Shown piece by piece: positions 31,912-46,600 of a stretch of DNA of 52,827 bases. Under the pieces are notes generated by a model. The model saw only the letters and a list, made by a program, of their open reading frames with translations, ran no database searches and was not told the DNA's origin. This stretch comes from an uncultured Methanobacteriaceae archaeon (lineage in GTDB: Archaea; Methanobacteriota; Methanobacteria; Methanobacteriales; Methanobacteriaceae). The stretch spans positions 1 to 52,827 of the forward strand of contig CAYUFT010000002.1 of assembly GCA_964444115.1 (NCBI GenBank), in the 5' to 3' direction. A program made the translations under genes and the position numbers. How positions within the stretch are numbered: the first letter of the stretch is position 1; every line of letters begins with the position of its first letter.

Positions 31912-32050
31912 TTTGACCCCTTATGAATGTTATACAATTCATTCTATAATTATAGTTGTAAGGTTGATTGTTATATAAAAAGTTTCTAATTTGAATGTCA
32001 AATAGTAAATTTTATAATAGTTTAATATTGATTAATTAATAGGTGTTGTA

Positions 32051-32242
32051 ATGACGGGGGATGAACAGTTTGCAAATATTCTTCTCAAAGAAGTTTTTGA
32101 AGATTTTATAAAAGAATTAGAAAACGATACAGAGTTTCCAAAATATGTTATCAACAATTTAAAGAAATTTAAAACTTATGATTTAACATCAAAAGAAACC
32201 ATGTTAAAATCTTTAAAAAGAGAGGATTCTAATGAAGATTAA
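32051..32242 (+). CDS. Small acidic protein (63 aa) overlapping the start of the ABC ATPase gene
   Basis: ATG preceded by AGGTG. 11-nt overlap with the 32232 gene. No motif. Confidence 0.4.
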   Translation: MTGDEQFANILLKEVFEDFIKELENDTEFPKYVINNLKKFKTYDLTSKETMLKSLKREDSNED

Positions 32243-34604
32243 AAATATTCAAATAGAATCTTTTAGGGGAATACCCTATCTAGATCAACCTTTGAATGAG
32301 AAAAGTTTGTTAATTCATGGCGAAAATGGAACTGGAAAAAGTTCTATAGTAGACGCAATTGAATATTTTTTTACGGGGAATATTTCCCATTTATCTAGGC
32401 CTTTTTCCATTAAAAATCATGGAACTCATACCAATTACTCACCAGAAGATCTTAAGGTATGTTTAGAATTAAATCCAACAAGCTGTTCACTAGAGAGAAC
32501 CATGGATTCAGTACCAATATGTCCTGAGGAACTTGAGGATGATATGGCAGCTGCTGAAAACAGCCCATTTATTTTACGAAGGTCTCAAATTCTTGAATTT
32601 ATTAATAGTGCTCCTGGTAAAAGATATAAACAAATTGGGAGTATGATTGGGGTGGATAATCTAGAAAAGATTGAAAGCACCCTAAAAGATGCCGTCGGTG
32701 ACATCCAGAGCGATATAAATACCAAACTCGGGCATTCCGAGAAAATAAAAGAAAATTTAGGCCAAATTTTAGATGATGATCTGAAAGAAGCTTATGAAAT
32801 TTTGGCTTTAATAAATAATTTTCTAGATAAAGAAGATCTTGATCATTTAGAATCTGTTGATGAAATTGAAGATTATGTTAATAAACTTGAAAAAACAGTT
32901 AAAACAATAGATTCAAGCAAAATTCATACTTTAGATAATATTTCCGGAAAAATTAAGAAAATAAATTCCGCTGATATAGAAATAACTGAGTTATTTAGTA
33001 TAATAGAAGATTTAAAAGAAAAAATCTTCCAAGAGCATGATATTTCTGATTTATCATTAATAGAAATCCTTAAAACTTCTAAAAAAATTCTCACAAAAAG
33101 TAAAACTTGTCCAATATGTGAAAATGAAATTAATGGAAAAGAACTTGTTGAAAAAATTGATGAACGTTTAAATGGGCTTGAAATACTTAAACAAAATCAT
33201 GACGAATTGAAAAAATCTATTAATGATCTTTACAAACTTATTGAGTTAGATAAAAGAAATTTAGAAAGTTTAATTGACGAATTGGAAATATTTGAAGAAT
33301 TTAATGAGTTAAATGATATCGCAACTAATAAAAAAGATTCTTTTGAAGATTTATTGAAAAATATTAATCAAGAGTCTTTCATTAAAGAAGAAATTCAGTT
33401 AGAATACTATGAAACTCTTAAATCGTCTCTAGAAGAATTTTTAAAAGATTTATCAAAACAAAATGAAAAATTAGAAGAAGAATTGAAACCTTCAGAAAAA
33501 GATGAAAATATTACTGAAATTTGTAAGAGTCTTTTAGAAATTAAAGGATATCTAAATGATTTAAATGATTTAAATAAACATATTTCTCAATTAGAGTCTG
33601 AATTAAAACTTGCAGATAAGATGTATACTGTTTTTTCTAAAATTCGAAAGGAAAAAATCCAAGAAATTTATGACACCATTGAAAAAGATGTTCAGAATTT
33701 CTATAGCATAATACATCCCAATGAGTTGTATGATGAGATAAAAATTGATATTGATCATTCGAGAAGAGCAAGTACCAACTTAAAAATGACAATTTTTGGT
33801 AAAGAAGATCAAGATCCTCGTGCATTAAGTAGTGAAGGCCATTTAGATTCATTAGGATTATGTATTTTCTTAGCACTTTTTAAAAATTTTAATAAAGAAT
33901 TCCCTCTTCTGGTTTTAGATGATGTGGTGTCAACCATGGATTCTAGGCACAGAGAACACGTTTGCAAACTTTTGTTTGAAAAATTTGCTGATAAACAACT
34001 TATAATAACTACTCATGATGGAATTTGGTTTGATCAATTAAAAGCTGCTCAAAGAGCCTATGGCCTATCAGGAAAATTTGAAAATATACAAATTGTTGGA
34101 TGGGATCTTGAGAATGGGCCTGTTATTGACAAATACACACCAAGATGGGATCGAATTCAGAATAAAATAAAAGAAAGAGACACTCATTGCGCTGGAAATG
34201 AAGGTCGGCGATATTTAGAATGGTTACTTAAAGAAATTTGTACTAATTCAAAGGCCAAAATTCCCCTAAAATCATCTGGAAGATATGAAATAAATGATCT
34301 TTTTGATCCCGCCAAGACAAGAATGATTAAACTAATCGAAGATCCTGATCTCAAGAAAGAACTTGAATCATCTTTTGATGAATTGAAAGCTACTATGATT
34401 ATGGGTAATTTATTATCTCATGAAAATTTGATGGCCGGAAATGTTTCTATCGATGAAGTAGAAAGTTTTTGCAATTCAATTCACAAACTTCATGAATTTA
34501 TGCTTTGTGATGAATGCAGTAATCCACTTAGATATTATCAAGAGATAAAAGTATTCAGATGTAGTGGTAAGAACTGTTCTAATCCAACCGAGATTAAATG
34601 CTAG
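32232..34604 (+). CDS. PrrC/RloC-like (AAA_13-type) ABC ATPase with a long coiled-coil insert, a CxxC hook and a C-terminal His-containing module plus Zn ribbon
   Basis: Walker A GENGTGKSS (about 32328-32354). Roughly 400 aa of heptad-rich insert with CPIC at 33108-33119. Signature-like LSSEGHLDSLGL, Walker B LLVLDDVVSTMD, H-loop ITTHD. C-terminal GRRYLEWLLKE ... GNLLSHEN ... CDECSN...FRCSGKNC. Confidence 0.75.
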   Translation: MKIKNIQIESFRGIPYLDQPLNEKSLLIHGENGTGKSSIVDAIEYFFTGNISHLSRPFSIKNHGTHTNYSPEDLKVCLELNPTSCSLERTMDSVPICPEELEDDMAAAENSPFILRRSQILEFINSAPGKRYKQIGSMIGVDNLEKIESTLKDAVGDIQSDINTKLGHSEKIKENLGQILDDDLKEAYEILALINNFLDKEDLDHLESVDEIEDYVNKLEKTVKTIDSSKIHTLDNISGKIKKINSADIEITELFSIIEDLKEKIFQEHDISDLSLIEILKTSKKILTKSKTCPICENEINGKELVEKIDERLNGLEILKQNHDELKKSINDLYKLIELDKRNLESLIDELEIFEEFNELNDIATNKKDSFEDLLKNINQESFIKEEIQLEYYETLKSSLEEFLKDLSKQNEKLEEELKPSEKDENITEICKSLLEIKGYLNDLNDLNKHISQLESELKLADKMYTVFSKIRKEKIQEIYDTIEKDVQNFYSIIHPNELYDEIKIDIDHSRRASTNLKMTIFGKEDQDPRALSSEGHLDSLGLCIFLALFKNFNKEFPLLVLDDVVSTMDSRHREHVCKLLFEKFADKQLIITTHDGIWFDQLKAAQRAYGLSGKFENIQIVGWDLENGPVIDKYTPRWDRIQNKIKERDTHCAGNEGRRYLEWLLKEICTNSKAKIPLKSSGRYEINDLFDPAKTRMIKLIEDPDLKKELESSFDELKATMIMGNLLSHENLMAGNVSIDEVESFCNSIHKLHEFMLCDECSNPLRYYQEIKVFRCSGKNCSNPTEIKC

Positions 34605-34637
34605 TAATTAATTTATTGATTTCATTAAATTGACAGA

Positions 34638-34646
34638 TTTTATAAA
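34638..34646 (+). promoter_or_regulatory. Candidate TATA box for the Type I R-M operon
   Basis: TTTATAAAA lies 56 nt upstream of the hsdM ATG, and GAGGG lies 8 nt upstream of the ATG. By position only. Confidence 0.3.
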
Positions 34647-34701
34647 ATAAGAAAGAAGATATTAAATTAATAAATCAGAAATTTTATCGAGGGTATTTAA
34701 A

Positions 34702-36258
34702 ATGGCAGTGAATAACAGCGAGATAGAAAACAAATTATGGAAAGCAGCCGATCAACTGAGAGCAAACTCAAAATTAACAGCCTCTGAATACTCAATTCCA
34801 GTTTTAGGACTAATTTTTTTACGTTATGCTGATTCTAAATTTACTTTGGCAAAAGAAAAGATAGAAAGCGAATTTAAAAATAAGAATAGTCGGATGGGAA
34901 TCAAGAAAGAACACTATCAATCAAAAGGTGTTCTATATCTCCCTGAAGAATCACGTTTTTCAAATCTTCTAGAACTGCCTGAAGACCAAAATATAGGAAG
35001 GGCAGTAAATGATGCCATGAAGGCCATTGAAGCTGAAAATGATGAATTAAAAGACGTATTACCCAAAACTTACAACCGATTAGAAAATGATGTATTGATT
35101 TCATTATTAAAAAACTTCTCTAACATATCAATTGATCTTGAAGGAGATGTTTTTGGGAAAATTTACGAATATTTCTTAGGTAAATTCGCAATGGCTGAAG
35201 GCCAACGGGGAGGAGAATTTTTTACTCCTACATCTTTAGTTAAATTGATAGTAGCGATAATCAAACCATTCCATGGCCGTATTTATGATCCTGCATGTGG
35301 TTCTGGAGGTATGTTTGTCCAGAGTGCTCATTTTGTAGAAGAGCATAAAAAAAATCCTACCAAAGAAATAGCAATTTATGGGCAGGAAAAAACTGCAGCC
35401 ACTATAAGATTATGTAAGATGAATCTTGCCGTGCATGGTTTATCCGGAGATATAAGACAAGGAAACACGTATTATGAAGATATACACAACTCTTTTGGTA
35501 AATTCGACTTTGTAATGGCCAATCCACCATTTAATGTGAGTGGGGTCGATAAAGAAAAGGTTAAAGACGATAAAAGATTTTCTTATGGTATTCCTCGTGC
35601 TGACAATGGAAACTATCTCTGGATTGAAGCTTTTGCCAATGCACTTAATCCAAAAGGGCGTGCCGGATTTGTCATGGCCAATTCTGCTGGTGACGCTGGA
35701 CAGTCTGAACTTGAAATTCGTAAAAAGTTAATCGAAGAAGGAATTGTAGATGTAATGGTTTCAGTAGGGCCTAATTTCTTTTATACTGTAACTTTACCTT
35801 GCAGCCTATGGTTTTTAGATAAAAACAAAAAAGGAACTCCTACTGAAAATAAAGTTCTTTTCATAGATGCTCGTGAAACTTATAGGCAAATTGACCGTGC
35901 ACATCGCGATTTTAAACCAGAACAAATTGAATTTTTAGCAAATATTGCTAGACTCTATCGTGGAGAAGAAATCGAGAATTTACATAATAGTAAATCGTTA
36001 GTTAATGAAACTTTTCCCGAAGGAGAATATAAAAATGTTTTAGGTCTTTGTAAATTAGTAAATTTTGATGAAATCATTGAAAATGGATATTCACTGAATC
36101 CTGGCCGTTATGTTGGTGTTGCTGAAATGGAAGAAGATGAATTTGATTTTAATGAGCGTTTGCATGAAATAAATAATGAGTTTCAACATTTGAATAAAAA
36201 AGCCCATGAATTAGAGAAAACAATTACAGAAAATTTATCTTCTTTATTGGAGAAATAG
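34702..36258 (+). CDS. hsdM: Type I restriction-modification system, methyltransferase subunit
   Basis: HsdM N-terminal helix bundle (LWKAADQLR), FFTP, motif [13 protein letters not shown], motif [11 protein letters not shown]. Confidence 0.95.
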
Positions 36259-36259
36259 C

Positions 36260-37561
36260 ATGCTTAAATTTCATAAATTAGATAATGTGACAAATTTCCT
36301 CGGTAGGGGTGTTCAGCCAGCCTATGATGAAAATGGAATTATTGTTTTTAATCAAAGGTGCATTAGGAATAATATTGTAAGTTTAAAGGAATCTCGAATT
36401 ACTAATCCTGAAAAAAGAAAAATTTCTAAAGAAAAATTTCTTCAAAAATATGATGTTTTAGTTAATTCAACGGGTGTAGGCACTCTAGGACGTGTTGGGC
36501 AGATTAAAGATATAAATTACGCCGCTACTGTGGATTCTCATGTAACCATTGTGAGACCGAATTTAAGTTGTTTTAATGGATTATTTTTTGGATATGCAAT
36601 GGTGTATTCCCAACCAAAAATAGAAGCTATGGGAGAAGGTACTACTGGTCAGACAGAACTTTCTAGAAAACGTTTAGGTTCTCAAATTAAAGTTCCTATC
36701 CCTAATTTAGAAATTCAAAATAAAATTGCTGAAATTCTTACAGCATATGATAATCTTATTGAAAACAATAATAATAGGATTCAAATATTATCTAAATTAA
36801 CAGAAATTATTTTTAGAGAATGGTTTATAAAATACAGATTCCCAAGTAAAGAAAAATTCGAAATGATTGAATCAAAAGTAGGATTAATACCTCAAAATTG
36901 GGAAATTAAGCCTTTGAGAGAGCTAATTTCTTATTACATTGGTGGTGGATGGGGAAAAGAATATCATGAATCTGATTTTCCTGATGAAGCATATGTAATT
37001 AGAGGTACTGACATACCCCAAGTTTCAGTTGGAAATTTAAAATCGTGTCCACATCGATTCCATAAAGCTTCAAATTTAAAATCAAGAAAAATTAAATCAA
37101 CGGATATTGTATTTGAGGTTTCTGGAGGAAGCAAAGGTCAACCCGTAGGTAGAAATATTCTCATTACAGAAGAAGTTGTTAATAGGCTGAGTAATATTAT
37201 GTGTGCGAGTTTTTGTAAATTGATTAGGCCTAATAATGAATTAATTAGCCCATTCTTTTTAGATCAATTCTTTAAATATATTTATAAATCTGGTGAAATT
37301 TTAACTTATCAAACACAATCAACGGGAATTTCAAATTTCAAATTTGAATATTTCTTAGATAAAGTTATGATCGCTGTTCCTCCTAAAGAGTTATCAATTG
37401 AATTTACAAATATTATATCTCCGATTTATGAATTGATAGCTAAATTAGGCCATAAAAACGAAATTTTACTTCAAAAAAGAGATTTAATCCTTCCCAAACT
37501 TATTTCAGGCCAAATAGATATCACAGATTTAGATATTATCACAGAGGAGATAGAATCATGA
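36260..37561 (+). CDS. hsdS: Type I restriction-modification system, specificity subunit (two TRDs)
   Basis: Two variable halves, each followed by a conserved helix (ILTAYDNLIENNNNRIQILSKLTEIIFREWF and LLQKRDLILPKLISGQIDI). 1-nt gap from hsdM and 4-nt overlap with hsdR. Confidence 0.9.
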   Translation: MLKFHKLDNVTNFLGRGVQPAYDENGIIVFNQRCIRNNIVSLKESRITNPEKRKISKEKFLQKYDVLVNSTGVGTLGRVGQIKDINYAATVDSHVTIVRPNLSCFNGLFFGYAMVYSQPKIEAMGEGTTGQTELSRKRLGSQIKVPIPNLEIQNKIAEILTAYDNLIENNNNRIQILSKLTEIIFREWFIKYRFPSKEKFEMIESKVGLIPQNWEIKPLRELISYYIGGGWGKEYHESDFPDEAYVIRGTDIPQVSVGNLKSCPHRFHKASNLKSRKIKSTDIVFEVSGGSKGQPVGRNILITEEVVNRLSNIMCASFCKLIRPNNELISPFFLDQFFKYIYKSGEILTYQTQSTGISNFKFEYFLDKVMIAVPPKELSIEFTNIISPIYELIAKLGHKNEILLQKRDLILPKLISGQIDITDLDIITEEIES

Positions 37562-40500
37562 CTCCAGGTTCATATTCTGAAGATGCATTGATTGAACAAC
37601 CAGCCATTGAATTGTTCAAGTCTTTAGGCTATGAACATAAAAATGGTTTTCATGAGACATTAGGTGAAAATGGAACTTTTAGTAGAGAAACTCAATCAGA
37701 AGTTGTTCTTAAAAAGCGATTAAAAGATTCTCTAATTCGTTTAAACCCTGGAATACCAGATCATATCATTGATCTTGCAATTGAAGACATCAGTAGAGAT
37801 AGGAGTATTCTAAATCCTACTGTGGCCAATCATGAAATTTATAAAATGATTCGAGATGGGATTAAAGTAAGTGTCAATTTTGATGAGGAATATGAAGAAA
37901 TTGAAACTCTAAAGATAATTGATTTTGATAACCCAAATAATAACGACTTTTTTTTGGCTTCACAGTTCTGGATCACTGGAGATATTGAGAAAAGAAGAGC
38001 AGATTTAGTAGGTTTTGTTAATGGCCTACCCCTTATTTTTATTGAACTAAAAGCAGCACATCGGAAAGTTAGTGATGCATTTACACATAATTTATCAGAT
38101 TATAAAGATACTATTCCCCAATTATTCTGGTATAACACTTTTATTATATTATCAAATGGTTCTCAAAGCAAAATTGGAACCATATCTGCTAAATTAGAAC
38201 ATTTTAGTGATTGGAAAAGAATTTCTAGTGAAGGAGAAAAAGGAATAATTTCTTTAGACACGATTATAAGAGGAACTTGTCAAAAAGAAAGATTTTTAGA
38301 TTTATTAGAAAACTTCACATTATTTAATGACGGTGGAACTCTGATTAAGATTCTAGGAAGAAACCACCAATATTTAGGAGTTAATAATGCCATTGAATCT
38401 TTTGAAAAGATTAAAGAAAACCAGGGAAAATTAGGGGTTTTCTGGCATACTCAGGGGAGCGGGAAAAGTTATTCCATGATTTTCTTTTCACAGAAAATTT
38501 TAAGGAAATTCCCTGGAAATTACACTTTTTTAATTGTTACTGATAGAAAAGAGTTAGATGATCAGATTTATAAAAATTTTGCCAATGCTGGTGCAGTAAT
38601 TGAGGATGAAGTACATGCAAAAAGCGGCGCCCATTTACAAGAGCTCTTAAGAGAAAACCATCGCAATATTTTCACACTTATCCATAAATTTCAAACAGAT
38701 GAAGGTGAAATCTATCCTGTTTTATCGGAACGTTCAGATATCATTGTTATTACTGACGAAGCACATCGTTCTCAGTACTCTACACTGGCCATGAACATGC
38801 GAACTGCACTTCCTAATGCTGCTTTTATTGCGTTTACCGGAACTCCTTTAATGGCGGGAGAAGAACTTACTAAAAATACCTTTGGGGATTATGTTAGCAT
38901 ATACAACTTCCGACAGTCTATTGAAGATCAGGCAACGGTTCCTTTATACTATGAGAACCGTATCCCAGAAGTTCAACTCAAAAATAAGGATCTTAACTCA
39001 GATATGGAGCGTATTATTGAAGATGCGCTGCTTGATGAGGACCAGCTGCAAAAACTTGAGCGAGAATTTGCCAGAGAATATCACTTAATAACTCGCAATG
39101 ATCGGCTCGAAAAAGTTGCAGAAGATATTGTCGATCATTTTATAGGCCGTGGCTATGATGGAAAAGCCATGGTAGTGTCCATTGATAAACCAACTGCAGT
39201 TAAAATGTACAATAAAGTTCAAGAATACTGGAAACATCATATTATTGAACTCCAAGATGAAATTAATCTTATTGATGATCCATCCCATAGAAAAGAGCTT
39301 GAAAATAAGCTTAATTTTATGATGGAAACTGATATGGCCGTTGTGGTAAGTGGTGGTCAAAATGAATTTGAAAAGTTCAAGCGCCTTAATTTAGACATAA
39401 AATCCCATCGTAAGAGAATGCAAAGTGAAGATTTAGCTTCCATGTTCAAAGATGCTGATAACCCTTTCAGAATTGTTTTTGTATGTGCTATGTGGATGAC
39501 TGGTTTTGATGTTCCTTCACTTTCAACCATTTACTTAGATAAACCAATGCGTAACCATACACTAATGCAGACTATCGCAAGAGCAAATAGGGTCTTTGAA
39601 GATAAGCCAAATGGTTTAATTGTTGATTACATTGGAGTATTTAGAGATTTGAAGAGAGCTTTGGCAATATATGGAGCTCCTGGAGAAGAATCAGAGGATA
39701 TTCCTGTAAAACCAAAATCAGAACTCATCGAAGAACTTAAAGAAGCATTAGATGAGATTGAAAGTTTTTGTAAAGAAAAAGAAATTAATACAATAGATAT
39801 TATATCTACAACAGGTTTTGAGAAAGTTAAACTCCTTGAAGATGCTGTAGATTCAATTTTAGTTAATGAAGATTCTAAAAAGAAATATTTTACCTTAGAA
39901 AGTGCTGTAAAAAACTTATTTAAAGCAATATTGCCTGATCGTGATGCTGGAATATTTAACGAAAAGGTTACATTATTTAGAATAATTTCCGAAAAAATTA
40001 GATCTTTAGATCCTGATGTTGATATATCCGAAGTAATGGACGACGTTGAGAAATTACTCGATGATTCGATTGAAAGCGAAGGATATATGATAAAAGCTAA
40101 AGGAAAAGGGATAGATTTAAGTAAAATCGACTTTGATGCTTTAAGAAAACACTTCGAAACAGGTAGAAAACATACAAAAGCAGAAAAGCTCAAAAATGAT
40201 GTTCAAAGAAAGGTTAAAGAGATGGTAACTCTTAATCAAACCAGAATAGATTTCATGGAAAAATTTGAAAAGATAATAAACGATTATAATTCTGGATCTG
40301 CCAACGTAGAAGCATTTTTTGAAGAATTGATGGAATTTGCAAAGGAGTTGAATAAAGAAGATATAAGGGGCATTTCTGAAAATCTTACTGAAGAAGAATT
40401 AGTAATCTTTGATTTGATTTACAAAGATGATCTAAAAGAAAAAGAAAAGAAAAAAGTTAAAAATACAGCTAAGTATCTTCTTAAAGTTCTAAAAAACGAA

Positions 40501-40701
40501 AAATTAGTTATTGACTGGAGAAAAAAACAGCAGTCAAGAGCTGATGTGTTATTTACTATTGAAAGCATTTTAGATGAATGTTTACCAAGAAGTTACTCTC
40601 CAGAAATATACGAAGAAAAATGTAATTTTGTTTATCAGCATATTTATGATTCATATTATGGGGTTGGGGAAAGCCTATATTCCAAAATGGGAATTGCTTG
40701 A
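37558..40701 (+). CDS. hsdR: Type I restriction enzyme, endonuclease/translocase subunit
   Basis: N-terminal nuclease region (RADLVGFVNGLPLIFIELKA), WHTQGSGKS, VITDEAHRSQ, FTGTP, QTIARANR. Confidence 0.95.
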   Translation: MTPGSYSEDALIEQPAIELFKSLGYEHKNGFHETLGENGTFSRETQSEVVLKKRLKDSLIRLNPGIPDHIIDLAIEDISRDRSILNPTVANHEIYKMIRDGIKVSVNFDEEYEEIETLKIIDFDNPNNNDFFLASQFWITGDIEKRRADLVGFVNGLPLIFIELKAAHRKVSDAFTHNLSDYKDTIPQLFWYNTFIILSNGSQSKIGTISAKLEHFSDWKRISSEGEKGIISLDTIIRGTCQKERFLDLLENFTLFNDGGTLIKILGRNHQYLGVNNAIESFEKIKENQGKLGVFWHTQGSGKSYSMIFFSQKILRKFPGNYTFLIVTDRKELDDQIYKNFANAGAVIEDEVHAKSGAHLQELLRENHRNIFTLIHKFQTDEGEIYPVLSERSDIIVITDEAHRSQYSTLAMNMRTALPNAAFIAFTGTPLMAGEELTKNTFGDYVSIYNFRQSIEDQATVPLYYENRIPEVQLKNKDLNSDMERIIEDALLDEDQLQKLEREFAREYHLITRNDRLEKVAEDIVDHFIGRGYDGKAMVVSIDKPTAVKMYNKVQEYWKHHIIELQDEINLIDDPSHRKELENKLNFMMETDMAVVVSGGQNEFEKFKRLNLDIKSHRKRMQSEDLASMFKDADNPFRIVFVCAMWMTGFDVPSLSTIYLDKPMRNHTLMQTIARANRVFEDKPNGLIVDYIGVFRDLKRALAIYGAPGEESEDIPVKPKSELIEELKEALDEIESFCKEKEINTIDIISTTGFEKVKLLEDAVDSILVNEDSKKKYFTLESAVKNLFKAILPDRDAGIFNEKVTLFRIISEKIRSLDPDVDISEVMDDVEKLLDDSIESEGYMIKAKGKGIDLSKIDFDALRKHFETGRKHTKAEKLKNDVQRKVKEMVTLNQTRIDFMEKFEKIINDYNSGSANVEAFFEELMEFAKELNKEDIRGISENLTEEELVIFDLIYKDDLKEKEKKKVKNTAKYLLKVLKNEKLVIDWRKKQQSRADVLFTIESILDECLPRSYSPEIYEEKCNFVYQHIYDSYYGVGESLYSKMGIA

Positions 40702-40739
40702 AATTACTTAATTGGAAATAGAATTAATAAAGGTGCAAA

Positions 40740-42884
40740 ATGAAACTATTTGAAGAATCTGAATTAATTCAGTCATCAATATCTTATTTAAGGAATGAAT
40801 TAGGTTTCAGTTTAATTGATTATGAAGTTCCATTTAATATTGGAAAAACAAAAAATAGGGCAGATATTGTAGTTTATAAAAAGAAAAATAATGAACAAAA
40901 GCCCTATATTTTAGTTGAAGTTAATTCACAAGATAAAATCGGAAAATATGCATGGATTCAAGCTGAAAGCTATGCTAAAAGATTAAAAACTCCTTACTTT
41001 GCTGTTACAAATGGTAATGAATGGCAATGGTTTAAAACTGGGAAAATTGGTGAATCTGATGAAATTAATATTGATCAAATAAATCGTTCTGGAACCACTG
41101 TGGGTAAAATTACTATTAAAGATCAAAAACATTTTTTAAAAGTTTTTGATCATATGAAACAGATTGTATATGAATCTGAAAATTTAAGATCAGATAAAAC
41201 CCTATATGAACTAATAAAAATAATATTTGTTAAGTTGGAATATGATAAAGACATTAATAAAAAAAATTCTTTAATTGGTGAAGACAGAAGTTTAACAGAC
41301 GGAATTAATGATTTTTATCAAATAAAGCTAAAAAAATACCCTAAATTGATTGATTCGAAATTAAACGAAAATTTTTTTAGAATAAACCTTAGTGAAGAAA
41401 CAATTTCTAAATTAATTAGTATTTTAGATCAATTTAAATTTATTGATTCCGATGTTAATGAATGTTTTAATCTTAATCTGCCTACTTTGGGTTATAACTT
41501 CAAAAATGAATTAGGATATTTCTTTATACCTCTTGAATTAAGTAAATTCATTGTTAATTTTATTAATCCAAGTATTGATAATTCAATTTTAAATCCTGCC
41601 TGCAAAAACGGAGCTTTATTAATTGAAACAATTAAAAAAAATTGTGAAGAGTTAAAAAGCTCAGAAAAGCCTGAAAATATTAAAGCTAATATATCTAAAA
41701 AAATTCATGGAATAGAAGATAACCCTGAACTTTACTGGTTTACTTGCATGAATTTAATTCTACATGGATATAGTGCTGATGGAATATCCCTTACAGATAC
41801 CTTAAATTTAGAAGAAAATGATAAATACGATATAATTTTTGTTATGCCCCCATTTGGCCATATAAATCGTTTTAATAATTTTATATCTGATGAAAATTTA
41901 AGAATAAGATATACAGAAGAAGCTTTTTTATTAAAATCTATTAAATTGCTTAAAAATTCAGGCAAAATGAGTATAATATTACCTGATCGAGTTTTGACGA
42001 GTCCTAGTGCTAGACTTTTAAGAAAATATTTAAAAGAAAAAATGAATATTTTATCGATTATTTCTTTACCAAATAACATTTTTATTCATAAAAATATTAA
42101 AACATCCATTTTGTTTCTCGAAAAAAAAGAAGAAGGATTTTCTAAACAAAAAACCGTTTTTATGGTTGATTTCCAATCTAAACATCAATTAAAGGAAAAG
42201 GATTTTAATGAAGTTTTAGAAGATTACATTCTTTTTAAAAAGACAAATTTAAAAAAGGGACGAATAAGTGAGAGTTCTTTCGCAGTGAATGAAGATTTGA
42301 TTATTGAAAATGATGTTTTAAGTACTTCTTATTATAATCCCGAATATTTAGAAATTAAAAATCAATTAAAAAAATTAAAGAATCAAAAAAAATTAAAAGA
42401 TATTGGTGAAATATCCATAGGACAAAGATTTAAAGATAATTTTGAATCATCTGACAGCAGCATACCTCTTATAAAGATTAAAAATATAGTTGATGGAAAA
42501 ATTTCAAAAAAAGATCTAAAATTTATAGAGATAAATAATCCTCGGACGAAATTATGGTCACCTGATACGTTAATAATTTCTCGAATTGGACTAAAAAATA
42601 AAATTGCAATATTACCGCCTGATTTTCCAAAATATACTCTAGATAAAAATTTAATAGGTATAAAACTTGAAAAAAACGTTATACCTGAATATTTGGCTTT
42701 ATTTTTAAATTCGAAATATGGAACGGTGCAGTTAGAATCAATAAAAGTTTCTGGAATAATTCCATATCTTGGTTTATCACATTTAAAGGAGATTATTATA
42801 CCTCTAAACTCAATTAAAGCTCAGAAAAAAATTTTGGAATTAAAAGATGGAAATGAAAATGATTTTTTTATGGAGATTAAATAA
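40740..42884 (+). CDS. Fusion protein: HsdR_N-like PD-(D/E)xK-fold N-domain + HsdM-like domain with degenerate catalytic motifs + a single HsdS-type TRD
   Basis: N-terminus NRADIVVYKK...PYILVEVNSQDK...YFAVTNGNEWQWF. MTase fold FFIPLELSKFIV, IHGIEDNPELYWFTCMNLILHG, SIISLPNNIF...TSILFLEK. Motif I reads ILNPACKNGALL (41592-41612) and motif IV reads FVMPPFG (41844-41855), not DPACGSG and NPPF. The C-terminal 190 aa or so are TRD-like. Confidence 0.8.
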   Translation: MKLFEESELIQSSISYLRNELGFSLIDYEVPFNIGKTKNRADIVVYKKKNNEQKPYILVEVNSQDKIGKYAWIQAESYAKRLKTPYFAVTNGNEWQWFKTGKIGESDEINIDQINRSGTTVGKITIKDQKHFLKVFDHMKQIVYESENLRSDKTLYELIKIIFVKLEYDKDINKKNSLIGEDRSLTDGINDFYQIKLKKYPKLIDSKLNENFFRINLSEETISKLISILDQFKFIDSDVNECFNLNLPTLGYNFKNELGYFFIPLELSKFIVNFINPSIDNSILNPACKNGALLIETIKKNCEELKSSEKPENIKANISKKIHGIEDNPELYWFTCMNLILHGYSADGISLTDTLNLEENDKYDIIFVMPPFGHINRFNNFISDENLRIRYTEEAFLLKSIKLLKNSGKMSIILPDRVLTSPSARLLRKYLKEKMNILSIISLPNNIFIHKNIKTSILFLEKKEEGFSKQKTVFMVDFQSKHQLKEKDFNEVLEDYILFKKTNLKKGRISESSFAVNEDLIIENDVLSTSYYNPEYLEIKNQLKKLKNQKKLKDIGEISIGQRFKDNFESSDSSIPLIKIKNIVDGKISKKDLKFIEINNPRTKLWSPDTLIISRIGLKNKIAILPPDFPKYTLDKNLIGIKLEKNVIPEYLALFLNSKYGTVQLESIKVSGIIPYLGLSHLKEIIIPLNSIKAQKKILELKDGNENDFFMEIK

Positions 42885-43681
42885 TGAAATTTTCATCCTC
42901 CGATATTTTCTGTATTTGTAAAATTATTAATGATTATTTCCCGTTAGAAGTCATTATCGGTGAGTTAACTGAAATTACTAATGATCAGGATTTAGATACA
43001 TTTCCAGAAATTCAGGAAACTATTTATAATTCAACTCAATCATTAAACTCAGATGCTATTAATGAATTAAGCGAATATTTTCATAGTTATCATATTAACT
43101 TTTTTTTGTTTATTAAAAAATTTGTCTCTGAAGAATTTTCAGAAACTTATTTAGAATATTTCCAATCATCAGATTTCTTAAAAAAGTTAAATAAAATTTT
43201 AATTGCCTATGAAATACGTATTAAAAACTATAAAATCCAAAAAAGAGTTTTTTTATTGCAAAATAGCTCTTTAGAGGAAAATTTATTATTTGTAGATATA
43301 ATAACACCAGATCATGTTGTTGATTATTACAAAGAATCATTAATTTGTCTAAATAATGAAACATTTAGATCATCTATTCTTTTTTGTGTTTTTGCTTTTG
43401 AGGCCGGGCTAAAATGTATGTATTATACTGTAGAAAAAAAAATTCCAAACGAACCGCTTCGTAGATTAATAGATTGGGCCAATAATAATAATCTTTTAGA
43501 AAAATTAGATGAAGACTATGATGAAGGCTATGAGGAATTAATTAAATTAAAAGATTATAGGAATATTCTTGTACATTGTAGTCCAAAGGAACGCGAAGAT
43601 ATCTCTTCAGAAATTGCAGGAAACCGAGCAGTAGCTGATTTAAATTTAATTAACCAGTCTTTAAATTCAATATTTGATTAA
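42884..43681 (+). CDS. HEPN-domain protein (predicted RNase)
   Basis: C-terminal four-helix pattern with FAFEAGLKCMYY... and the R-x4-H motif KDYRNILVHCS (43559-43576). Its start shares 1 nt with the stop of the upstream gene (TAATG). Confidence 0.6.
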   Translation: MKFSSSDIFCICKIINDYFPLEVIIGELTEITNDQDLDTFPEIQETIYNSTQSLNSDAINELSEYFHSYHINFFLFIKKFVSEEFSETYLEYFQSSDFLKKLNKILIAYEIRIKNYKIQKRVFLLQNSSLEENLLFVDIITPDHVVDYYKESLICLNNETFRSSILFCVFAFEAGLKCMYYTVEKKIPNEPLRRLIDWANNNNLLEKLDEDYDEGYEELIKLKDYRNILVHCSPKEREDISSEIAGNRAVADLNLINQSLNSIFD

Positions 43682-43694
43682 TAGGGGGGCTTAG

Positions 43695-46600
43695 ATGAAA
43701 TGGACATTTATTATAAATAAAGATTTTTATTCCGAACTAAAATCCAAGAATGAAATAAAATGGAATAGTGCTAAAGAAGTGAAGAAAGGAGACATAATTT
43801 TAATATATACTGGATCTCCTTACAGCAATATTGGTTTCATTTTAAAAGCTATTTCAGACCCTTTTGAAGATTCAGAAATAAGAAAAGCCTGGGATAGACC
43901 AGCAATAATGGTTGAAAAATTACTCGAAATTCCAGAACCTATCGAACTATCTCAACTAAAAGAAAACCCCATATTAAGCAATTGGGGTGCCGTGAGAATG
44001 GGTTTTAGGGGTTCTCATTTCAAAATGTCACAAGAAGAGTGGAAAGAAATAATAAAACTTATTTTAGGGCAAAATCCTGAATTGGAAGTTGAAATTCTAA
44101 ATTTAGAAAACATATTATCAAATGGGACAATTAATCCAGAAACTATACATTATAATGATTTAAGTGCTGGTCGGGCCCATTTAGTTCGTGATTTATGCTA
44201 TTTAATAGAAAAAAATAGTAATTTAAGTGAAAAAAAGCTTTTTGATATCTTAAGGAGAAAAGTAGGAAATAATGATAATTATTGGAAAGCATATTTTTTA
44301 AGATCTAATAAAAATAACAGTCCTCAGTACAGTTTAAATTCAGCAAGAAGTTTAGGGCTGGTTGAAAAAAATTCACTACACCTAACTGAAACAGGAAAAG
44401 AATTAGCAGATTTATCTACATCCAATGAATTATTCACTCATTATTATGGGCTAGAAGTAAAAAAGTTCTTCTTTAAATTGGCTGCTTCTATCCATTCTAT
44501 AAAAACAGCTATGCAAATTTTAAAGGAAAAAAGAGAATTGCGTTTTTATTCTCCAACCTGTAAAGAAATTGATAAAGTGACTTGGGACTGGAAGATCGAA
44601 AATGGAAAAGTAATTTGTGAATCTGACAAATATAACAAATGTAAATTATGTGATAACGATTTTATGACTCATATGAAAGAATCATCACTACCCCTTGAAA
44701 CTATGCAAAAAACTAATGGGGAAGGATACGGATTTGTATTCTGGATGTGCAGTCGTATCACTCCAATGCATTTGAAAGGTTCAGATCCAGTTTATTCTGG
44801 AAATTATATTTATTGGGATGATGATGCTGAAAAAGAGCTTGGGCATCTAATTAAAATATTAGATGAAAATAAAAATTCATCCCCCAAAGTATGGAAAATA
44901 TCTCCAGGTAACTTTGAAAAAAGAAAAAAATTATGGCCAATCCTTGTTGAAAAAGGTTATATTGGAGTAGGATGGTTTGGTTGTGAATCTTTTATCAAGA
45001 AATCATTTTCTCAATTTAAATCACTAGATAGTTTAAAAGAAGAACTTCAAAAATGCTCCAAAAAGAAAGCAGTTATAAAAAATGCAGACATGATATGGAA
45101 TTTTGGAAAAGAAATTAAAATTGGAGATTATGTTGTAGCTAACAATGGCCTTAAAGGAATATGGGGCATAGGAATAATAAAAAGTGATTATATACCTCCA
45201 GATGAATCAATTAAGTTGAAGATTGATGAAGATAATGAATATTTCCATTTCAGAAAAGTTGAATGGTTAATAACCGCTCCTATTGAAATGAAAGAAGATT
45301 ATTTTTTTGTACAACAAACTATTAAAAAAATAGATTCCGAGAAATGGAAAAAAATTAAGTCATCTTATATTAAAATAAACCCTGAATATGAACGTATTTT
45401 CAGAGAAATGGAAAATAAGTCGAAAAGTGGGGACATTGAACAAGAAATTAAATTAATTAAAAAGTTATATGCTGAATTCAATAAAGATTATTTTTCAAAA
45501 CCAATAGGCATAGAACATGCTGAGGGCTATGAAAAAGAAAGACAAGAAGTTCTTAAATATTACAACAAAATTAAAGATAATCCTGAAATTTTTAATGATA
45601 CCAATAACCCAATAATTAACTACCTCTTGCCAATAAAACGTTTTTCAGTTGCTCCTACCGGATTCAATGATATTAAAGCTGTTCGAAGAAGAGAAGATAA
45701 TCTGCCTGAATTTTCAGAGTCTGTTTATAATCTAATTATTGATTTAATCAACAAAAATGATTCTAATGAACAGAAAGAGGTAATTAATACATTTAAAACA
45801 GGAGATGGGAAGGGAATACAGTCTGCAGTTTTATCATCAGTTCTTTATTTCTTAAACCCAACTTATCTATATATTAACACAAAGACTGTAAAAACTTTTA
45901 GAATATTATCTGAACTTTTAGGTCATGACAAATATATCAATGGGAATTTAATCGACTATATTGATAATTTAAAAAGATTGAAAGAATTGAAAAATGAAAT
46001 TTCTGCAATTATACCCGAATTTAAAGATTTTGAGGTTTTTGATGCCTTCTGTAACTGGATGTGTGATGCAAATCTAGGTGCTTATGCAGTTAATGGTATA
46101 AAACTCGAAATTTTAAAAAAGAATTATGATTTAAACATCAAAAATTCATTTGAAATCCTTTTAGAAAATTACAACAAAGCTAAAGTAGATAAAGTTTCAC
46201 CTGCTGAAAAAATCTTAGTAAGAGACCTATTATCAACTACAATCCCTGAAAAGTTATCTGAAATAAATCAGGGCCAATATAAAATATTCAGTAGCGCTTG
46301 GGATAAATGGCATTATTGTCCCTATGTGGCCTTGATGAATGAAAAAATCACATCTAAACATATAACTGGATATTATGTTAATTACATGTTTAGAGAAGAT
46401 ATGAGTGGCATTTATCTGGCCTTAAGGCAAGGTGTGCCAGAATTTGATAAAAGAAAGCTGGCTAAAAATTCAGAAGAATATAGAAGTAAAATAAGATCTC
46501 AAAAAGAAGTTACTGAATTTTCAGAAGAAATTGACCTAAAATCCTCTCAGGGCCAATTTGGAAAGTTTTATGAATCTGCAAATATCTACTCCAAATTTTA

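What the first reader, a model, noticed from the sequence alone, without database searches (positions are those of the whole stretch)
32051..34604. RloC/PrrC-like ABC ATPase with a Rad50-style CxxC hook immediately upstream of the Type I R-M operon
The ATPase head (Walker A at the N-terminus; signature, Walker B and H-loop after residue 540 or so) is split by about 400 aa of coiled coil. A CPIC motif (33108-33119) lies near the middle of that coil. This is the arrangement described for RloC, the Rad50-like relative of the anticodon nuclease PrrC. PrrC/RloC genes are classically embedded in Type I R-M loci, and here the gene ends 97 nt before hsdM. The C-terminal module has R-x3-E (RRYLE) and a conserved N-x3-H (NLLSH), followed by a Zn ribbon. 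That is compatible with, but does not prove, a HEPN-type tRNase. A 63-aa acidic ORF overlaps the start by 11 nt and could be a partner or antidote.
Basis: partly seen in the sequence, partly recalled or inferred. Interest (0 to 1): 0.65.

Follow-up and report, generated by a model that had tools for sequence, protein, structure and literature searches.

The report
RloC-like zinc-hook ATPase-HEPN gene pair
This methanogen carries a mobile two-gene module, a tiny acidic protein plus a Rad50-like "zinc-hook" ATPase ending in an RNA-cutting-type (HEPN) domain and a zinc ribbon. It belongs to a large unnamed family built like the anti-phage tRNA nuclease RloC, and its position beside a Type I restriction system is incidental, not a fixed partnership.

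Summary
ORF 32232-34604 (790 aa) is a Rad50/SMC-class ABC ATPase. Its head is split by about 350 aa of coiled coil, with an invariant CPxC (293-296) in the only long loop of the coil. After the head come a helical domain (N656-x2-R659-x3-E663 ... N726-x2-S-H730) and a 4-Cys zinc ribbon.

A 63-aa acidic ORF overlaps the start by 11 nt, and hsdM starts 97 nt downstream.

The protein is not a member of the PrrC/RloC families: it has no AAA_13 or PrrC-model hit, and PADLOC's RloC-type (PDC-S06) models match only its hook-to-head region. It is a distant relative:
- A profile-profile comparison with true RloC gives probability 99.3% and runs into the N-R-E motif.
- The C-domain score beats all 200 shuffles.
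- A sister clade carries the canonical HEPN R-N-x4-H at exactly the G725-N726...H730 site, and that Arg is mutually exclusive with R659 (264 versus 20 sequences).

So this is a HEPN site with a relocated Arg, the same configuration as in RloC.

The small ORF is conserved in 62 of 65 homologous loci. Type I R-M linkage is not conserved (3 of 79 loci).

Most likely function: a self-contained, DNA-sensing, RNase-based abortive-infection module. It is a new variant of a known kind and has not been tested experimentally.

The parts
32051..32242 (+). Small partner gene: 63 aa, acidic (pI 4.7). The sequence pattern suggests three short helices. Its stop overlaps the ATPase start by 11 nt.
   Evidence: An equivalent + strand ORF (46-117 aa, typically about 60) ends within a few nt of the ATPase start in 62 of 65 homologous loci. 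dN/dS is 0.36 against the 89%-identical relative. No Pfam or PADLOC hit.
32232..34604 (+). 790-aa Rad50/SMC-class ABC ATPase fused to a HEPN-like domain and a zinc ribbon (P0001)
   Evidence: Pfam SMC_N, AAA_23 and AAA_15. PADLOC LmuB model 1.8e-33. Foldseek hits Rad50 7zr1 at 1e-13, SMC heads and LmuB 9hqx. The family is about 797 aa long in archaea and bacteria.
32319..32345 (+). Walker A, GENGTGKSS (aa 30-38)
   Evidence: Invariant G30, N32, G35, K36, S37, S38 in 81 sequences.
32655..33713 (+). Coiled-coil insert (aa 142-494) that splits the ATPase head
   Evidence: AF2 secondary structure shows long helices with short breaks.
33108..33119 (+). CPIC zinc-hook motif (aa 293-296)
   Evidence: C293, P294 and C296 are invariant in 81 sequences. 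The motif lies in loop 287-301 between helices. BLASTP aligns it with the CAFC hook of a genuine RloC.
33825..34019 (+). Head C-lobe motifs: signature LSSEGHLDSLG (532-542), Walker B LLVLDD (559-564), D-loop TMDSRH (568-573) and H-loop TTHD (593-596)
   Evidence: The 'DD...D..H' pattern is shared with RloC (DDPISSLDSNH).
34137..34502 (+). HEPN-like helical domain (aa 636-757)
   Evidence: AF2 pLDDT 92. The only Foldseek hits with low rmsd and high probability are HEPN proteins: 2q00, 1o3u, 1ufb, 2hsb. No Pfam or PADLOC hit.
34197..34220 (+). Helix-2 motif N656-E-G-R659-R-Y-L-E663
   Evidence: E663 is invariant, and R659 and N656 are kept in at least 90% of sequences. It aligns with RloC's invariant N692-x2-R695-x3-E699.
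34404..34427 (+). G725-N726-L-L-S-H730-E-N732: the HEPN Rx4-6H site with the Arg lost
   Evidence: N726, H730 and N732 are kept in at least 90% of sequences. A sister clade has R-N-x4-H here and lacks R659: 264 versus 20 sequences with no overlap.
34503..34601 (+). C-terminal zinc ribbon, CDEC...CSGKNC (C759, C762, C777, C782)
   Evidence: C759 and C777 are invariant; C762 and C782 are kept in at least 90%. AF2 predicts three short strands. RloC has no equivalent.
34605..34701 (+). 97-nt spacer before hsdM. It holds a TTTATAAAA TATA-like element and marks the boundary between modules with different divergence.

Best explanation
The region encodes a self-contained two-gene conflict (anti-virus or abortive-infection) module of a large, unnamed family related to RloC.

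Shown:
- The large protein is a Rad50/LmuB-class ABC ATPase. Its coiled coil carries an invariant CPxC zinc hook.
- Its C-terminus is a HEPN-fold domain followed by a zinc ribbon.
- The HEPN site has the RloC/PrrC configuration. His730 (preceded by Ser) and Asn726 sit at the canonical Rx4-6H position, and the Arg is supplied from helix 2 (N656-x2-R659-x3-E663).
- A roughly 60-aa acidic protein is almost always co-encoded with an overlapping stop/start.

Inferred by analogy with RloC (PMC2610378, PMC3458546):
- The hook-linked dimer senses DNA, such as ends, breaks or foreign DNA, through its DNA-dependent ATPase.
- ATP-driven head engagement switches on the HEPN RNase.
- The RNase cuts tRNA or other RNA and stops translation in the infected cell.
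- The small acidic protein is an obligate stoichiometric subunit. Most likely it holds the nuclease or head in the off state, like an antitoxin. Alternatively it is a mini-adaptor on the coiled-coil neck.

The adjacent Type I R-M operon is a neighbour in a mosaic defence island, not a required partner.
For: Architecture and invariant residues.

Rad50/SMC/LmuB class.

Relationship to RloC:
- BLASTP against the archaeal RloC L080 gives E=1e-4 with the hooks aligned.
- hhalign of the family against an RloC alignment gives probability 99.3%, E=1.5e-20, over residues 472-666, including N-x2-R-x3-E.
- The C-domain alone scores 23.5 against a shuffled null of 10.7+/-2.0; 0 of 200 shuffles reach it.
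- Both share 'x-N-x-x-S-H' with a non-Arg residue before the Asn.

HEPN identity:
- The AF2 C-domain has pLDDT 92, and HEPN proteins are the only well-superposing hits.
- R725 and R659 are mutually exclusive. The swap appears at two separate places on the tree.

Partner gene: 62 of 65 loci; dN/dS 0.36.

Mobility and defence context:
- Present in 7 of 41 relatives, at 38-100% identity within one genus.
- Neighbours are SNF2-NOV_C, PLD-helicase, Type III R-M, McrB-like, DUF1156 methylase, YhcG and PIN genes.
- The C-domain is found in 1924 clusters at 50% identity. The 150 best listed carry it at the C-terminus of ~800-aa proteins or of shorter, apparently partial ones.
Against: - There is no experimental datum for any family member.
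- HMMER profiles (Pfam, PADLOC PrrC and PDC-S06 models) do not detect the C-domain.
- Foldseek E-values for the HEPN matches are not significant (at least 0.46).
- Probability for the C-domain-only hhalign is low, 2-6%.
- The R659-H730 spacing (66 residues between E663 and H730) is longer than RloC's 36-52.
- The small protein's role is pure inference. No fusion or known-family hit was found.
- The RNA target is unknown.
- A DNA-directed or purely regulatory role for the C-domain is not excluded.
Confidence: 0.62

Rival explanations
1. A PrrC-type guard of the adjacent Type I R-M enzyme. The ATPase-nuclease would be physically masked by HsdMSR and released when a phage anti-restriction factor disables the enzyme.
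For: The gene lies directly upstream of hsdM-hsdS-hsdR (97-nt gap) in the window and in the 89%-identical relative L090. PrrC works this way (PMC2610378).
Against: - HsdM-like genes lie within 10 kb in only 3 of 79 homologous loci.
- The pair stands alone among housekeeping genes in L091.
- The pair is about 91% and the hsd operon 98-99% nt identical between the window and L090, so they have separate histories.
- hsdM appears to have its own TATA-like element.
- The gene is not inserted inside the hsd operon as prrC is.
- There is no PrrC-model hit.
Confidence: 0.1
2. A Lamassu-like, DNA-directed system. The LmuB-like ATPase would sense DNA ends, and the C-terminal domain plus zinc ribbon would act on DNA, or only bind and regulate. 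The small protein would play an LmuC- or kleisin-like role.
For: The best defence-model hit is LmuB (1.8e-33). Foldseek hits LmuB in 9hqx, 9hqu and 9uxh. CxxC SMC-like proteins (SbcC, LmuB, RloC, DndD) form one superfamily (PMC12663957). Zinc ribbons often bind nucleic acids.
Against: - No LmuA or LmuC homologue is in the locus.
- The same LmuB model also hits genuine RloC at 1e-14 to 1e-17, so it is a generic model.
- The C-domain carries HEPN-type residues, including a canonical R-N-x4-H clade, which points to RNA cleavage.
Confidence: 0.12
3. A housekeeping archaeal SMC-related or Rad50-paralogue protein involved in DNA repair or chromosome organisation, with a non-catalytic tail.
For: NCBIfam ASRP (archaea-specific SMC-related protein) 8e-20, and RecF and Rad50 models. 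Sources annotate homologues as SbcC or RecF ATPases.
Against: - All these scores are far below the curated cut-offs (70.9 versus 300 bits).
- The distribution is patchy, 7 of 41 relatives, with very different identities within one genus.
- The family spreads across many bacterial and archaeal phyla.
- The neighbours are defence genes.
- There is no Mre11/SbcD partner.
- The polar residues in the tail are conserved in a catalytic-type pattern.
Confidence: 0.04

Closest known systems
RloC (wobble-nucleotide-excising anticodon nuclease; Pfam AAA_13, PADLOC PDC-S06; Davidov & Kaufmann 2008, Klaiman et al. 2012)
   Same: - Similar size (658-897 aa).
- ABC ATPase head split by a coiled coil with a CxxC zinc hook.
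- Walker B 'DD' and D-loop 'D..H/N'.
- C-terminal helical nuclease domain with N-x2-R-x3-E ... N-x2-S-H.
- Laterally mobile and only rarely linked to R-M systems.
   Different: - Falls below the family models: no AAA_13 hit, and PDC-S06 models match only the hook-to-head region.
- About 25 extra residues lie between the R/E and H motifs.
- It has an additional 4-Cys zinc ribbon.
- It has an obligate upstream ~60-aa acidic partner. The two RloC-family (AAA_13) loci inspected have no comparable small upstream ORF.
- It is abundant in archaea.
- The family also contains a clade with the canonical HEPN Rx5H motif.
PrrC (tRNA-Lys anticodon nuclease guarded by the Type Ic R-M enzyme EcoprrI)
   Same: An ABC ATPase fused to a HEPN-type nuclease with an R-x3-E...H triad. 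In this window it sits next to a Type I R-M operon.
   Different: PrrC is about 400 aa with no coiled coil or hook, and it is always embedded inside an hsd operon. Here the R-M linkage is not conserved and there is no PrrC-model hit.
Lamassu LmuB / DdmC (SMC-like CxxC ATPase of the LmuACB system)
   Same: It gives the best defence-HMM hit and is among the closest solved structural relatives of the ATPase and coiled coil. The likely logic of sensing DNA ends is the same.
   Different: Lamassu keeps its effector (LmuA) and LmuC as separate proteins. Here the effector is fused in cis, is HEPN-type, and the only partner is a 63-aa protein.
Rad50/SbcC-Mre11/SbcD
   Same: The head, coiled-coil and zinc-hook architecture. 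Rad50 is the top Foldseek hit (7zr1).
   Different: There is no Mre11/SbcD nuclease partner, the coil is much shorter, a HEPN tail and zinc ribbon are added, and the gene is accessory and mobile.

Membership tests
RloC (Pfam AAA_13 / PADLOC PDC-S06) | Scores above the family model's cut-off over its full length | tested here: not met
   P0001 has no AAA_13 hit at E<0.1. The whole genome has 0 hits at E<=0.001. Siblings score 24-36 bits against a cut-off of 36, and only over profile positions ~23-580 of 713. The PDC-S06 model PDLC04891 gives 1.3e-12 on residues 288-607 only, whereas true RloC scores 1e-170 to 1e-217 over its full length.
RloC (Pfam AAA_13 / PADLOC PDC-S06) | Rad50-like coiled-coil insert with a central CxxC zinc hook | tested here: met
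   CPIC 293-296 is invariant, lies in the loop between coil helices, and aligns with RloC's hook.
RloC (Pfam AAA_13 / PADLOC PDC-S06) | C-terminal Arg-x3-Glu-x36-52-His triad, with Ser often before His (PMC2610378) | tested here: inconclusive
   R659-x3-E663 and S729-H730 are present and colinear with RloC's N-x2-R-x3-E...SH. The spacing, however, is 66 residues, and HMMER does not detect the domain.
RloC (Pfam AAA_13 / PADLOC PDC-S06) | DNA- and ATP-switched anticodon nuclease activity | not testable with these tools
   This needs biochemistry.
PrrC | Invariably embedded in a Type Ic hsd operon | tested here: not met
   Here the gene is adjacent to the operon (upstream of hsdM), not inside it. 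HsdM-like genes lie within 10 kb in 3 of 79 homologous loci. The pair stands alone in L091.
PrrC | About 400-aa ABC ATPase without a coiled-coil insert; matches the PrrC model | tested here: not met
   The protein is 790 aa with a 350-aa insert. There is no hit to PDLC02360, although that model hits true RloC at 1e-9 to 1e-14.
HEPN superfamily | Four-helix up-down bundle | tested here: inconclusive
   The AF2 model is confident (pLDDT 92). The HEPN proteins 2q00_B, 1o3u, 1ufb and 2hsb are the hits with the best probability (0.75-0.92), TM-score (0.52-0.57) and rmsd (4-5.5 A), but their E-values are 0.46-1.2.
HEPN superfamily | Rx4-6H motif at the end of helix 3, with a polar residue after the R | tested here: not met
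   The window protein has G725-N726-x3-H730, so the Arg is missing. At the same columns, 20 family members have R-N-x3-4-H. These 20 never have R659, and the 264 members with R659 never have R725. This is the Arg-relocated variant also seen in RloC.
HEPN superfamily | Conserved acidic residue in helix 2 | tested here: met
   E663 is invariant in 81 sequences and lies in model helix 651-673.
Lamassu (LmuACB) | LmuB SMC-like ATPase co-encoded with an LmuA effector (and LmuC) | tested here: not met
   The LmuB model hits at 1.8e-33, but none of the neighbouring genes scanned hits an LmuA or LmuC model.
Rad50/SbcC | Operon with an Mre11/SbcD phosphoesterase; scores above the Rad50 models' cut-offs | tested here: not met
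   Rad50 NCBIfam scores are 40-44 bits against cut-offs of 700-1087. There is no Mre11/SbcD gene nearby.

The most novel reading that the evidence does not exclude
The pair may represent an undescribed, very widespread two-gene immune system, with at least 1,900 clusters at 50% identity across many archaeal and bacterial phyla. It would be distinct from both RloC and Lamassu.

In this reading, a ~60-aa acidic mini-subunit gates a zinc-hook SMC-like DNA sensor. ATP-driven head engagement of that sensor would bring two HEPN domains together into an active RNase.

The family holds both the canonical R-N-x4-H site and the Arg-relocated, RloC-type site. It may therefore record how the PrrC/RloC anticodon-nuclease active site arose from an ordinary HEPN domain.
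Probability: 0.35. Interest if true: 0.8.

Novelty: new variant of a known kind. Interest (0 to 1): 0.62.

Why it matters
ABC-ATPase-HEPN fusions (PrrC, RloC) are classic translation-targeting anti-phage devices, but few have been studied. Pfam, NCBIfam and PADLOC do not name this family.

This family is large and spans archaea (Methanobacteriota, Asgard, Bathyarchaeia, Thermoplasmata) and many bacterial phyla. It adds two features that can be tested directly:
- An obligate 60-aa partner, which may explain how a toxic RNase is kept silent without an R-M masking protein.
- A natural, reciprocal relocation of the catalytic Arg. This gives a clean mutational test (R659G with G725R) of how the RloC/PrrC-type active site relates to the canonical HEPN site.

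It would also add a candidate defence system for archaea, where few have been characterised. For annotation, it shows that lying next to a Type I R-M operon is not evidence of PrrC-like coupling.

Tried and rejected
- **HMMER on the C-terminal domain:** Pfam and PADLOC scans of the 187-aa C-terminal domain from ten family members gave nothing meaningful.
- **Sequence search of PDB:** it found only the SMC and Rad50 head regions.
- **Foldseek of the C-domain against viral structures:** no credible match.
- **Rosetta-stone fusions:** I searched for the small protein fused to the ATPase. The small-protein HMM hit only P0002 among 282 fetched proteins.
- **Small upstream ORF in true RloC loci (L080, L081):** no comparable ORF; L080 has only an unrelated 41-aa ORF over the annotated start.
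- **Literature:** searches for a named family with this architecture found none.
- **Earlier scan notes by sequence:** nothing returned.
- **Considered and rejected:** obligate PrrC-like coupling to the hsd operon; Lamassu membership, because there is no LmuA or LmuC; a housekeeping SMC or Rad50 paralogue, because of the patchy distribution.
- **Caveat:** the count of hsdM neighbours used tblastn with this window's HsdM and could miss very divergent methylases. De novo clustering of the neighbour ORFs also showed no large HsdM-like cluster.
Full report
**1. Observation.**

The + strand ORF 32232-34604 encodes 790 aa. Direct inspection and motif indexing give these positions:

| Feature | Sequence | Residues |
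|---|---|---|
| Walker A | GENGTGKSS | 30-38 |
| Q-loop | RRSQ | 116-119 |
| Hook | CPIC | 293-296 (nt 33108-33119) |
| Signature | LSSEGHLDSLG | 532-542 |
| Walker B | LLVLDD | 559-564 |
| D-loop | TMDSRH | 568-573 |
| H-loop | TTHD | 593-596 |
| Helix-2 motif | NEGRRYLE | 656-663 |
| HEPN-site motif | GNLLSHEN | 725-732 |
| Zinc ribbon | CDEC...CSGKNC | 759-782 |

The 63-aa ORF 32051-32242 overlaps the start by 11 nt. It is acidic, with 15 D/E against 10 K/R and pI 4.7. hsdM begins at 34702, 97 nt after the stop. hsdS, hsdR and a methylase-S fusion follow. The only correction is that the coiled-coil insert is about 350 aa, not 400.

**2. The ATPase.**

Pfam gives SMC_N, AAA_23, AAA_15 and AAA_21, but not AAA_13. 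The best PADLOC model is an LmuB model (1.8e-33), followed by mad3 and one PDC-S06 model. NCBIfam gives only sub-threshold ASRP, RecF and Rad50 matches. A family profile searched against PDB sequences finds SMC3 and Rad50 heads.

The full-length AF2 model has mean pLDDT 87.1. It shows a two-lobed head, long helices 142-286 and 302-494 with short breaks, and CPIC in the loop 287-301 between them. Its best Foldseek matches are Rad50 (7zr1, 1e-13), SMC heads and Lamassu LmuB.

C293, P294 and C296 are invariant in 81 homologues down to 20% identity. I conclude that this is a genuine Rad50-style zinc hook. I could not measure its apical position because no coordinates were available.

**3. The family.**

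Homologues are strikingly uniform, about 797 aa with 37-89% identity among the 120 listed. They occur in:
- Archaea: Methanobacteriota, Archaeoglobus, Methanoperedens, Bathyarchaeia, Heimdall- and Helarchaeota, and Thermoplasmata.
- Bacteria: Chloroflexota, Caldiserica, Cloacimonadota, Acidobacteriota, Elusimicrobiota, Verrucomicrobiota, Gammaproteobacteria and others.

A profile of the C-terminal 187 aa finds 1924 clusters at 50% identity with E<=0.001. The 150 best listed carry the domain at the C-terminus of ~800-aa proteins or of shorter, apparently partial ones.

Among 41 relatives of the host genome, only 7 carry a homologue. Identities within the same genus are 100, 49 and 38%. This is an accessory, laterally moving gene.

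**4. The partner gene.**

In 62 of 65 homologous loci with intact upstream sequence, a + strand ORF of 46-117 aa (typically about 60) ends within a few nucleotides of the ATPase start, usually overlapping it. Thirty-two of these ORFs cluster by sequence with the window's ORF. They share a core '..EEIFEEFFKKLE.D..FP..I...LK.LW..G....S.E.I...I' followed by an acidic tail, and their median pI is 4.66.

Against the 89%-identical relative, dN/dS is 0.36 for the small gene and 0.22 for the ATPase. No library names the small protein. No fused version was found. The two RloC-family (AAA_13) loci examined have no comparable small upstream ORF. The conserved unit is therefore a translationally coupled pair.

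**5. Is it RloC or PrrC?**

As a member of those families, no. The host genome gives no AAA_13 match at E<=0.001. Siblings reach 24-36 bits against a cut-off of 36, and only over the ATPase and coiled-coil part of the profile, ending at about position 580 of 713. PADLOC's RloC-type models (PDC-S06) and its PrrC model score genuine RloC at 1e-170 to 1e-217 and 1e-9 to 1e-14. For this family they give only a partial PDC-S06 hit and no PrrC hit.

As a relative, yes. A genuine RloC from a related methanogen (L080, identical to P0127; its homologues are annotated 'wobble nucleotide-excising tRNase') aligns with P0001 by BLASTP at E=1e-4. The alignment runs from the hook (KTCPICENEING against STCAFCGQNIDG) to the H-loop.

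Profile-profile comparison of the family (A3) with nine RloC-family (AAA_13) sequences (A4) gives probability 99.3% and E=1.5e-20. It runs colinearly from the signature motif, through 'DD...D..H' and the H-loop, into 'PYKPRWE.I' and 'AGNEGRrYLEwLL' against 'fpNnaRKFLEsyl'.

RloC's invariant C-terminal residues are N692, R695, E699, F704 and H739, with Ser before the His. The window has N656, R659, E663 and S729-H730.

With relaxed or global alignment the two C-domains align motif for motif. The local score of 23.5 exceeds all 200 column-shuffled controls, whose mean is 10.7 with sd 2.0. The differences from RloC are about 25 extra residues between the motifs and the terminal zinc ribbon.

**6. 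Is the tail a HEPN domain?**

The separately modelled tail is confident (pLDDT 92.3). No Foldseek match is significant by E-value. However, the only hits that combine high probability (0.75-0.92), TM-score 0.52-0.57 and rmsd 4-5.5 A are HEPN proteins: 2q00, 1o3u, 1ufb and 2hsb.

In the model, E663 and R659 lie in the long second helix. G725-N726...H730 lies at the end of the third core helix, running into the loop before the last helix. The HEPN survey places the acidic residue and the Rx4-6H motif at exactly these positions (PMC3710099).

The family's own variation gives the strongest argument. Among 284 aligned tails:
- 264 have R659 and never have Arg at position 725, where they carry G, A, S and other residues.
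- 20 have R725, forming a canonical R-N-x3-4-H (for example VRNWIGAH), and never have R659. Where the helix-2 motif could be aligned, these carry Gly at that position.

I built a tree without these two columns. On it, 17 of the R725 sequences form one clade with support 0.998. One further case (P0188, 'NLTGQYLE / MRNFLSHYN') is nested inside the R659 clade. The reciprocal swap is therefore seen at two separate places on the tree.

This identifies H730 as the HEPN catalytic His. It also identifies R659 as a relocated catalytic Arg, the configuration described for the PrrC/RloC 'R-x3-E...H' triad (PMC2610378).

**7. Relation to the Type I R-M operon.**

tblastn with the window's HsdM, HsdS and HsdR finds HsdM-like genes within 10 kb in only 3 of 79 homologous loci. 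De novo clustering of neighbour ORFs instead finds a mixture: SNF2 helicases with NOV_C or PLD nuclease domains, Type III res and mod genes, McrB-like AAA_5, DUF1156 methylases, YhcG and PIN.

The 89%-identical relative (L090) is syntenic with the window. The 59%-identical pair (L091) lies among transporter and redox genes.

Between the window and L090, nt identity changes along the island:

| Segment | nt identity |
|---|---|
| The pair (small ORF plus ATPase) | 89-93% |
| Spacer and hsdMSR | 96-99.7% |
| Methylase-S fusion | 91-95% |
| Downstream HEPN gene | about 70% |

The island is a mosaic of units that recombine independently. The R-M adjacency looks like defence-island co-location, as reported for RloC (8 of 72 R-M linked; PMC2610378), not PrrC-like obligatory coupling. 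Functional cross-talk in trans cannot be excluded.

**8. Mechanism.**

Shown:
- A hook-bearing Rad50/LmuB-class ATPase.
- A HEPN site of RloC type.
- A zinc ribbon.
- An obligate small acidic partner.
- Mobility and a defence-island context.

Inferred from RloC biochemistry, in which zinc-hook mutations activate the anticodon nuclease and the DNA-dependent ATPase switches it on (PMC3458546):
- DNA sensing by the hook-linked dimer drives ATP-dependent head engagement.
- Head engagement licenses the HEPN RNase against tRNA or other RNA and arrests translation.
- HEPN RNases generally need two domains to form a site (my own knowledge of the family, not tested here). Head dimerisation is therefore an attractive switch.
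- The small protein most likely holds the off state, consistent with its upstream position, overlapping stop/start and acidity. A neck-binding adaptor role is the alternative.

I put about 0.6 on this overall picture, about 0.85 on 'HEPN-type nuclease domain', and about 0.9 on 'defence or conflict module rather than housekeeping'.

**9. Novelty and scan context.**

Pfam, NCBIfam and PADLOC do not name the family, and my literature searches found no description of it. Earlier notes of this scan describe what appears to be the same module in other genomes. These are unverified AI notes. They agree with my results, and I re-derived their claims here independently, including the Arg relocation.

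I classify this as a new variant of a known kind (ABC-ATPase-HEPN, RloC-like), with moderate to high interest.

Noticed in passing
window 31990-44087 compared with L090: The defence island is a mosaic. nt identity to the closest relative is 89-93% over the small ORF and ATPase, 96-99.7% over the spacer and hsdMSR, 91-95% over the methylase-S fusion, and about 70% over the downstream HEPN gene. A patch of about 90% identity at 35285-35884 inside hsdM suggests a recombination tract.
   Followed up: partly
L057, L069, L070, L072, L073, L078, L079 (upstream of the pair): In a divergent bacterial subclade, an SNF2-family helicase of about 1000 aa ends about 190-290 nt before the ATPase start on the same strand, that is, just upstream of the small ORF. 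In five of these loci (L069, L070, L072, L078, L079) a Type III res gene follows within 6 kb, in some with mod and a YhcG nuclease. This may be a larger operon in that clade.
   Followed up: partly
L080 (relative G006, Methanobrevibacter curvatus): A related methanogen carries a genuine RloC (AAA_13 at 402 bits; PADLOC PDC-S06 at 7e-217). It is preceded by a 250-aa gene, not by a small acidic ORF. Both RloC and the RloC-like family therefore circulate in Methanobacteriaceae.
   Followed up: partly
P0188 (family member found): One member nested in the R659 clade has swapped back to G659 with R725 ('NLTGQYLE' / 'MRNFLSHYN'). It is a natural double mutant and would be useful for testing the Arg-relocation idea.
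   Followed up: partly
window 34605-34701: The 97-nt spacer before hsdM is about 98% identical to that of L090 (a 2-nt indel is the only difference) and contains a TTTATAAAA element about 50 nt upstream of the hsdM ATG. This suggests the hsd operon has its own archaeal promoter.
   Followed up: no
L001, L002, L003, L047, L075 (within about 3 kb of the pair): Large McrB-like AAA_5 proteins (955-1508 aa) with long N-terminal reader-like regions recur near the pair in Methanobacteriaceae loci. They resemble the giant McrB homologue downstream in this window.
   Followed up: no
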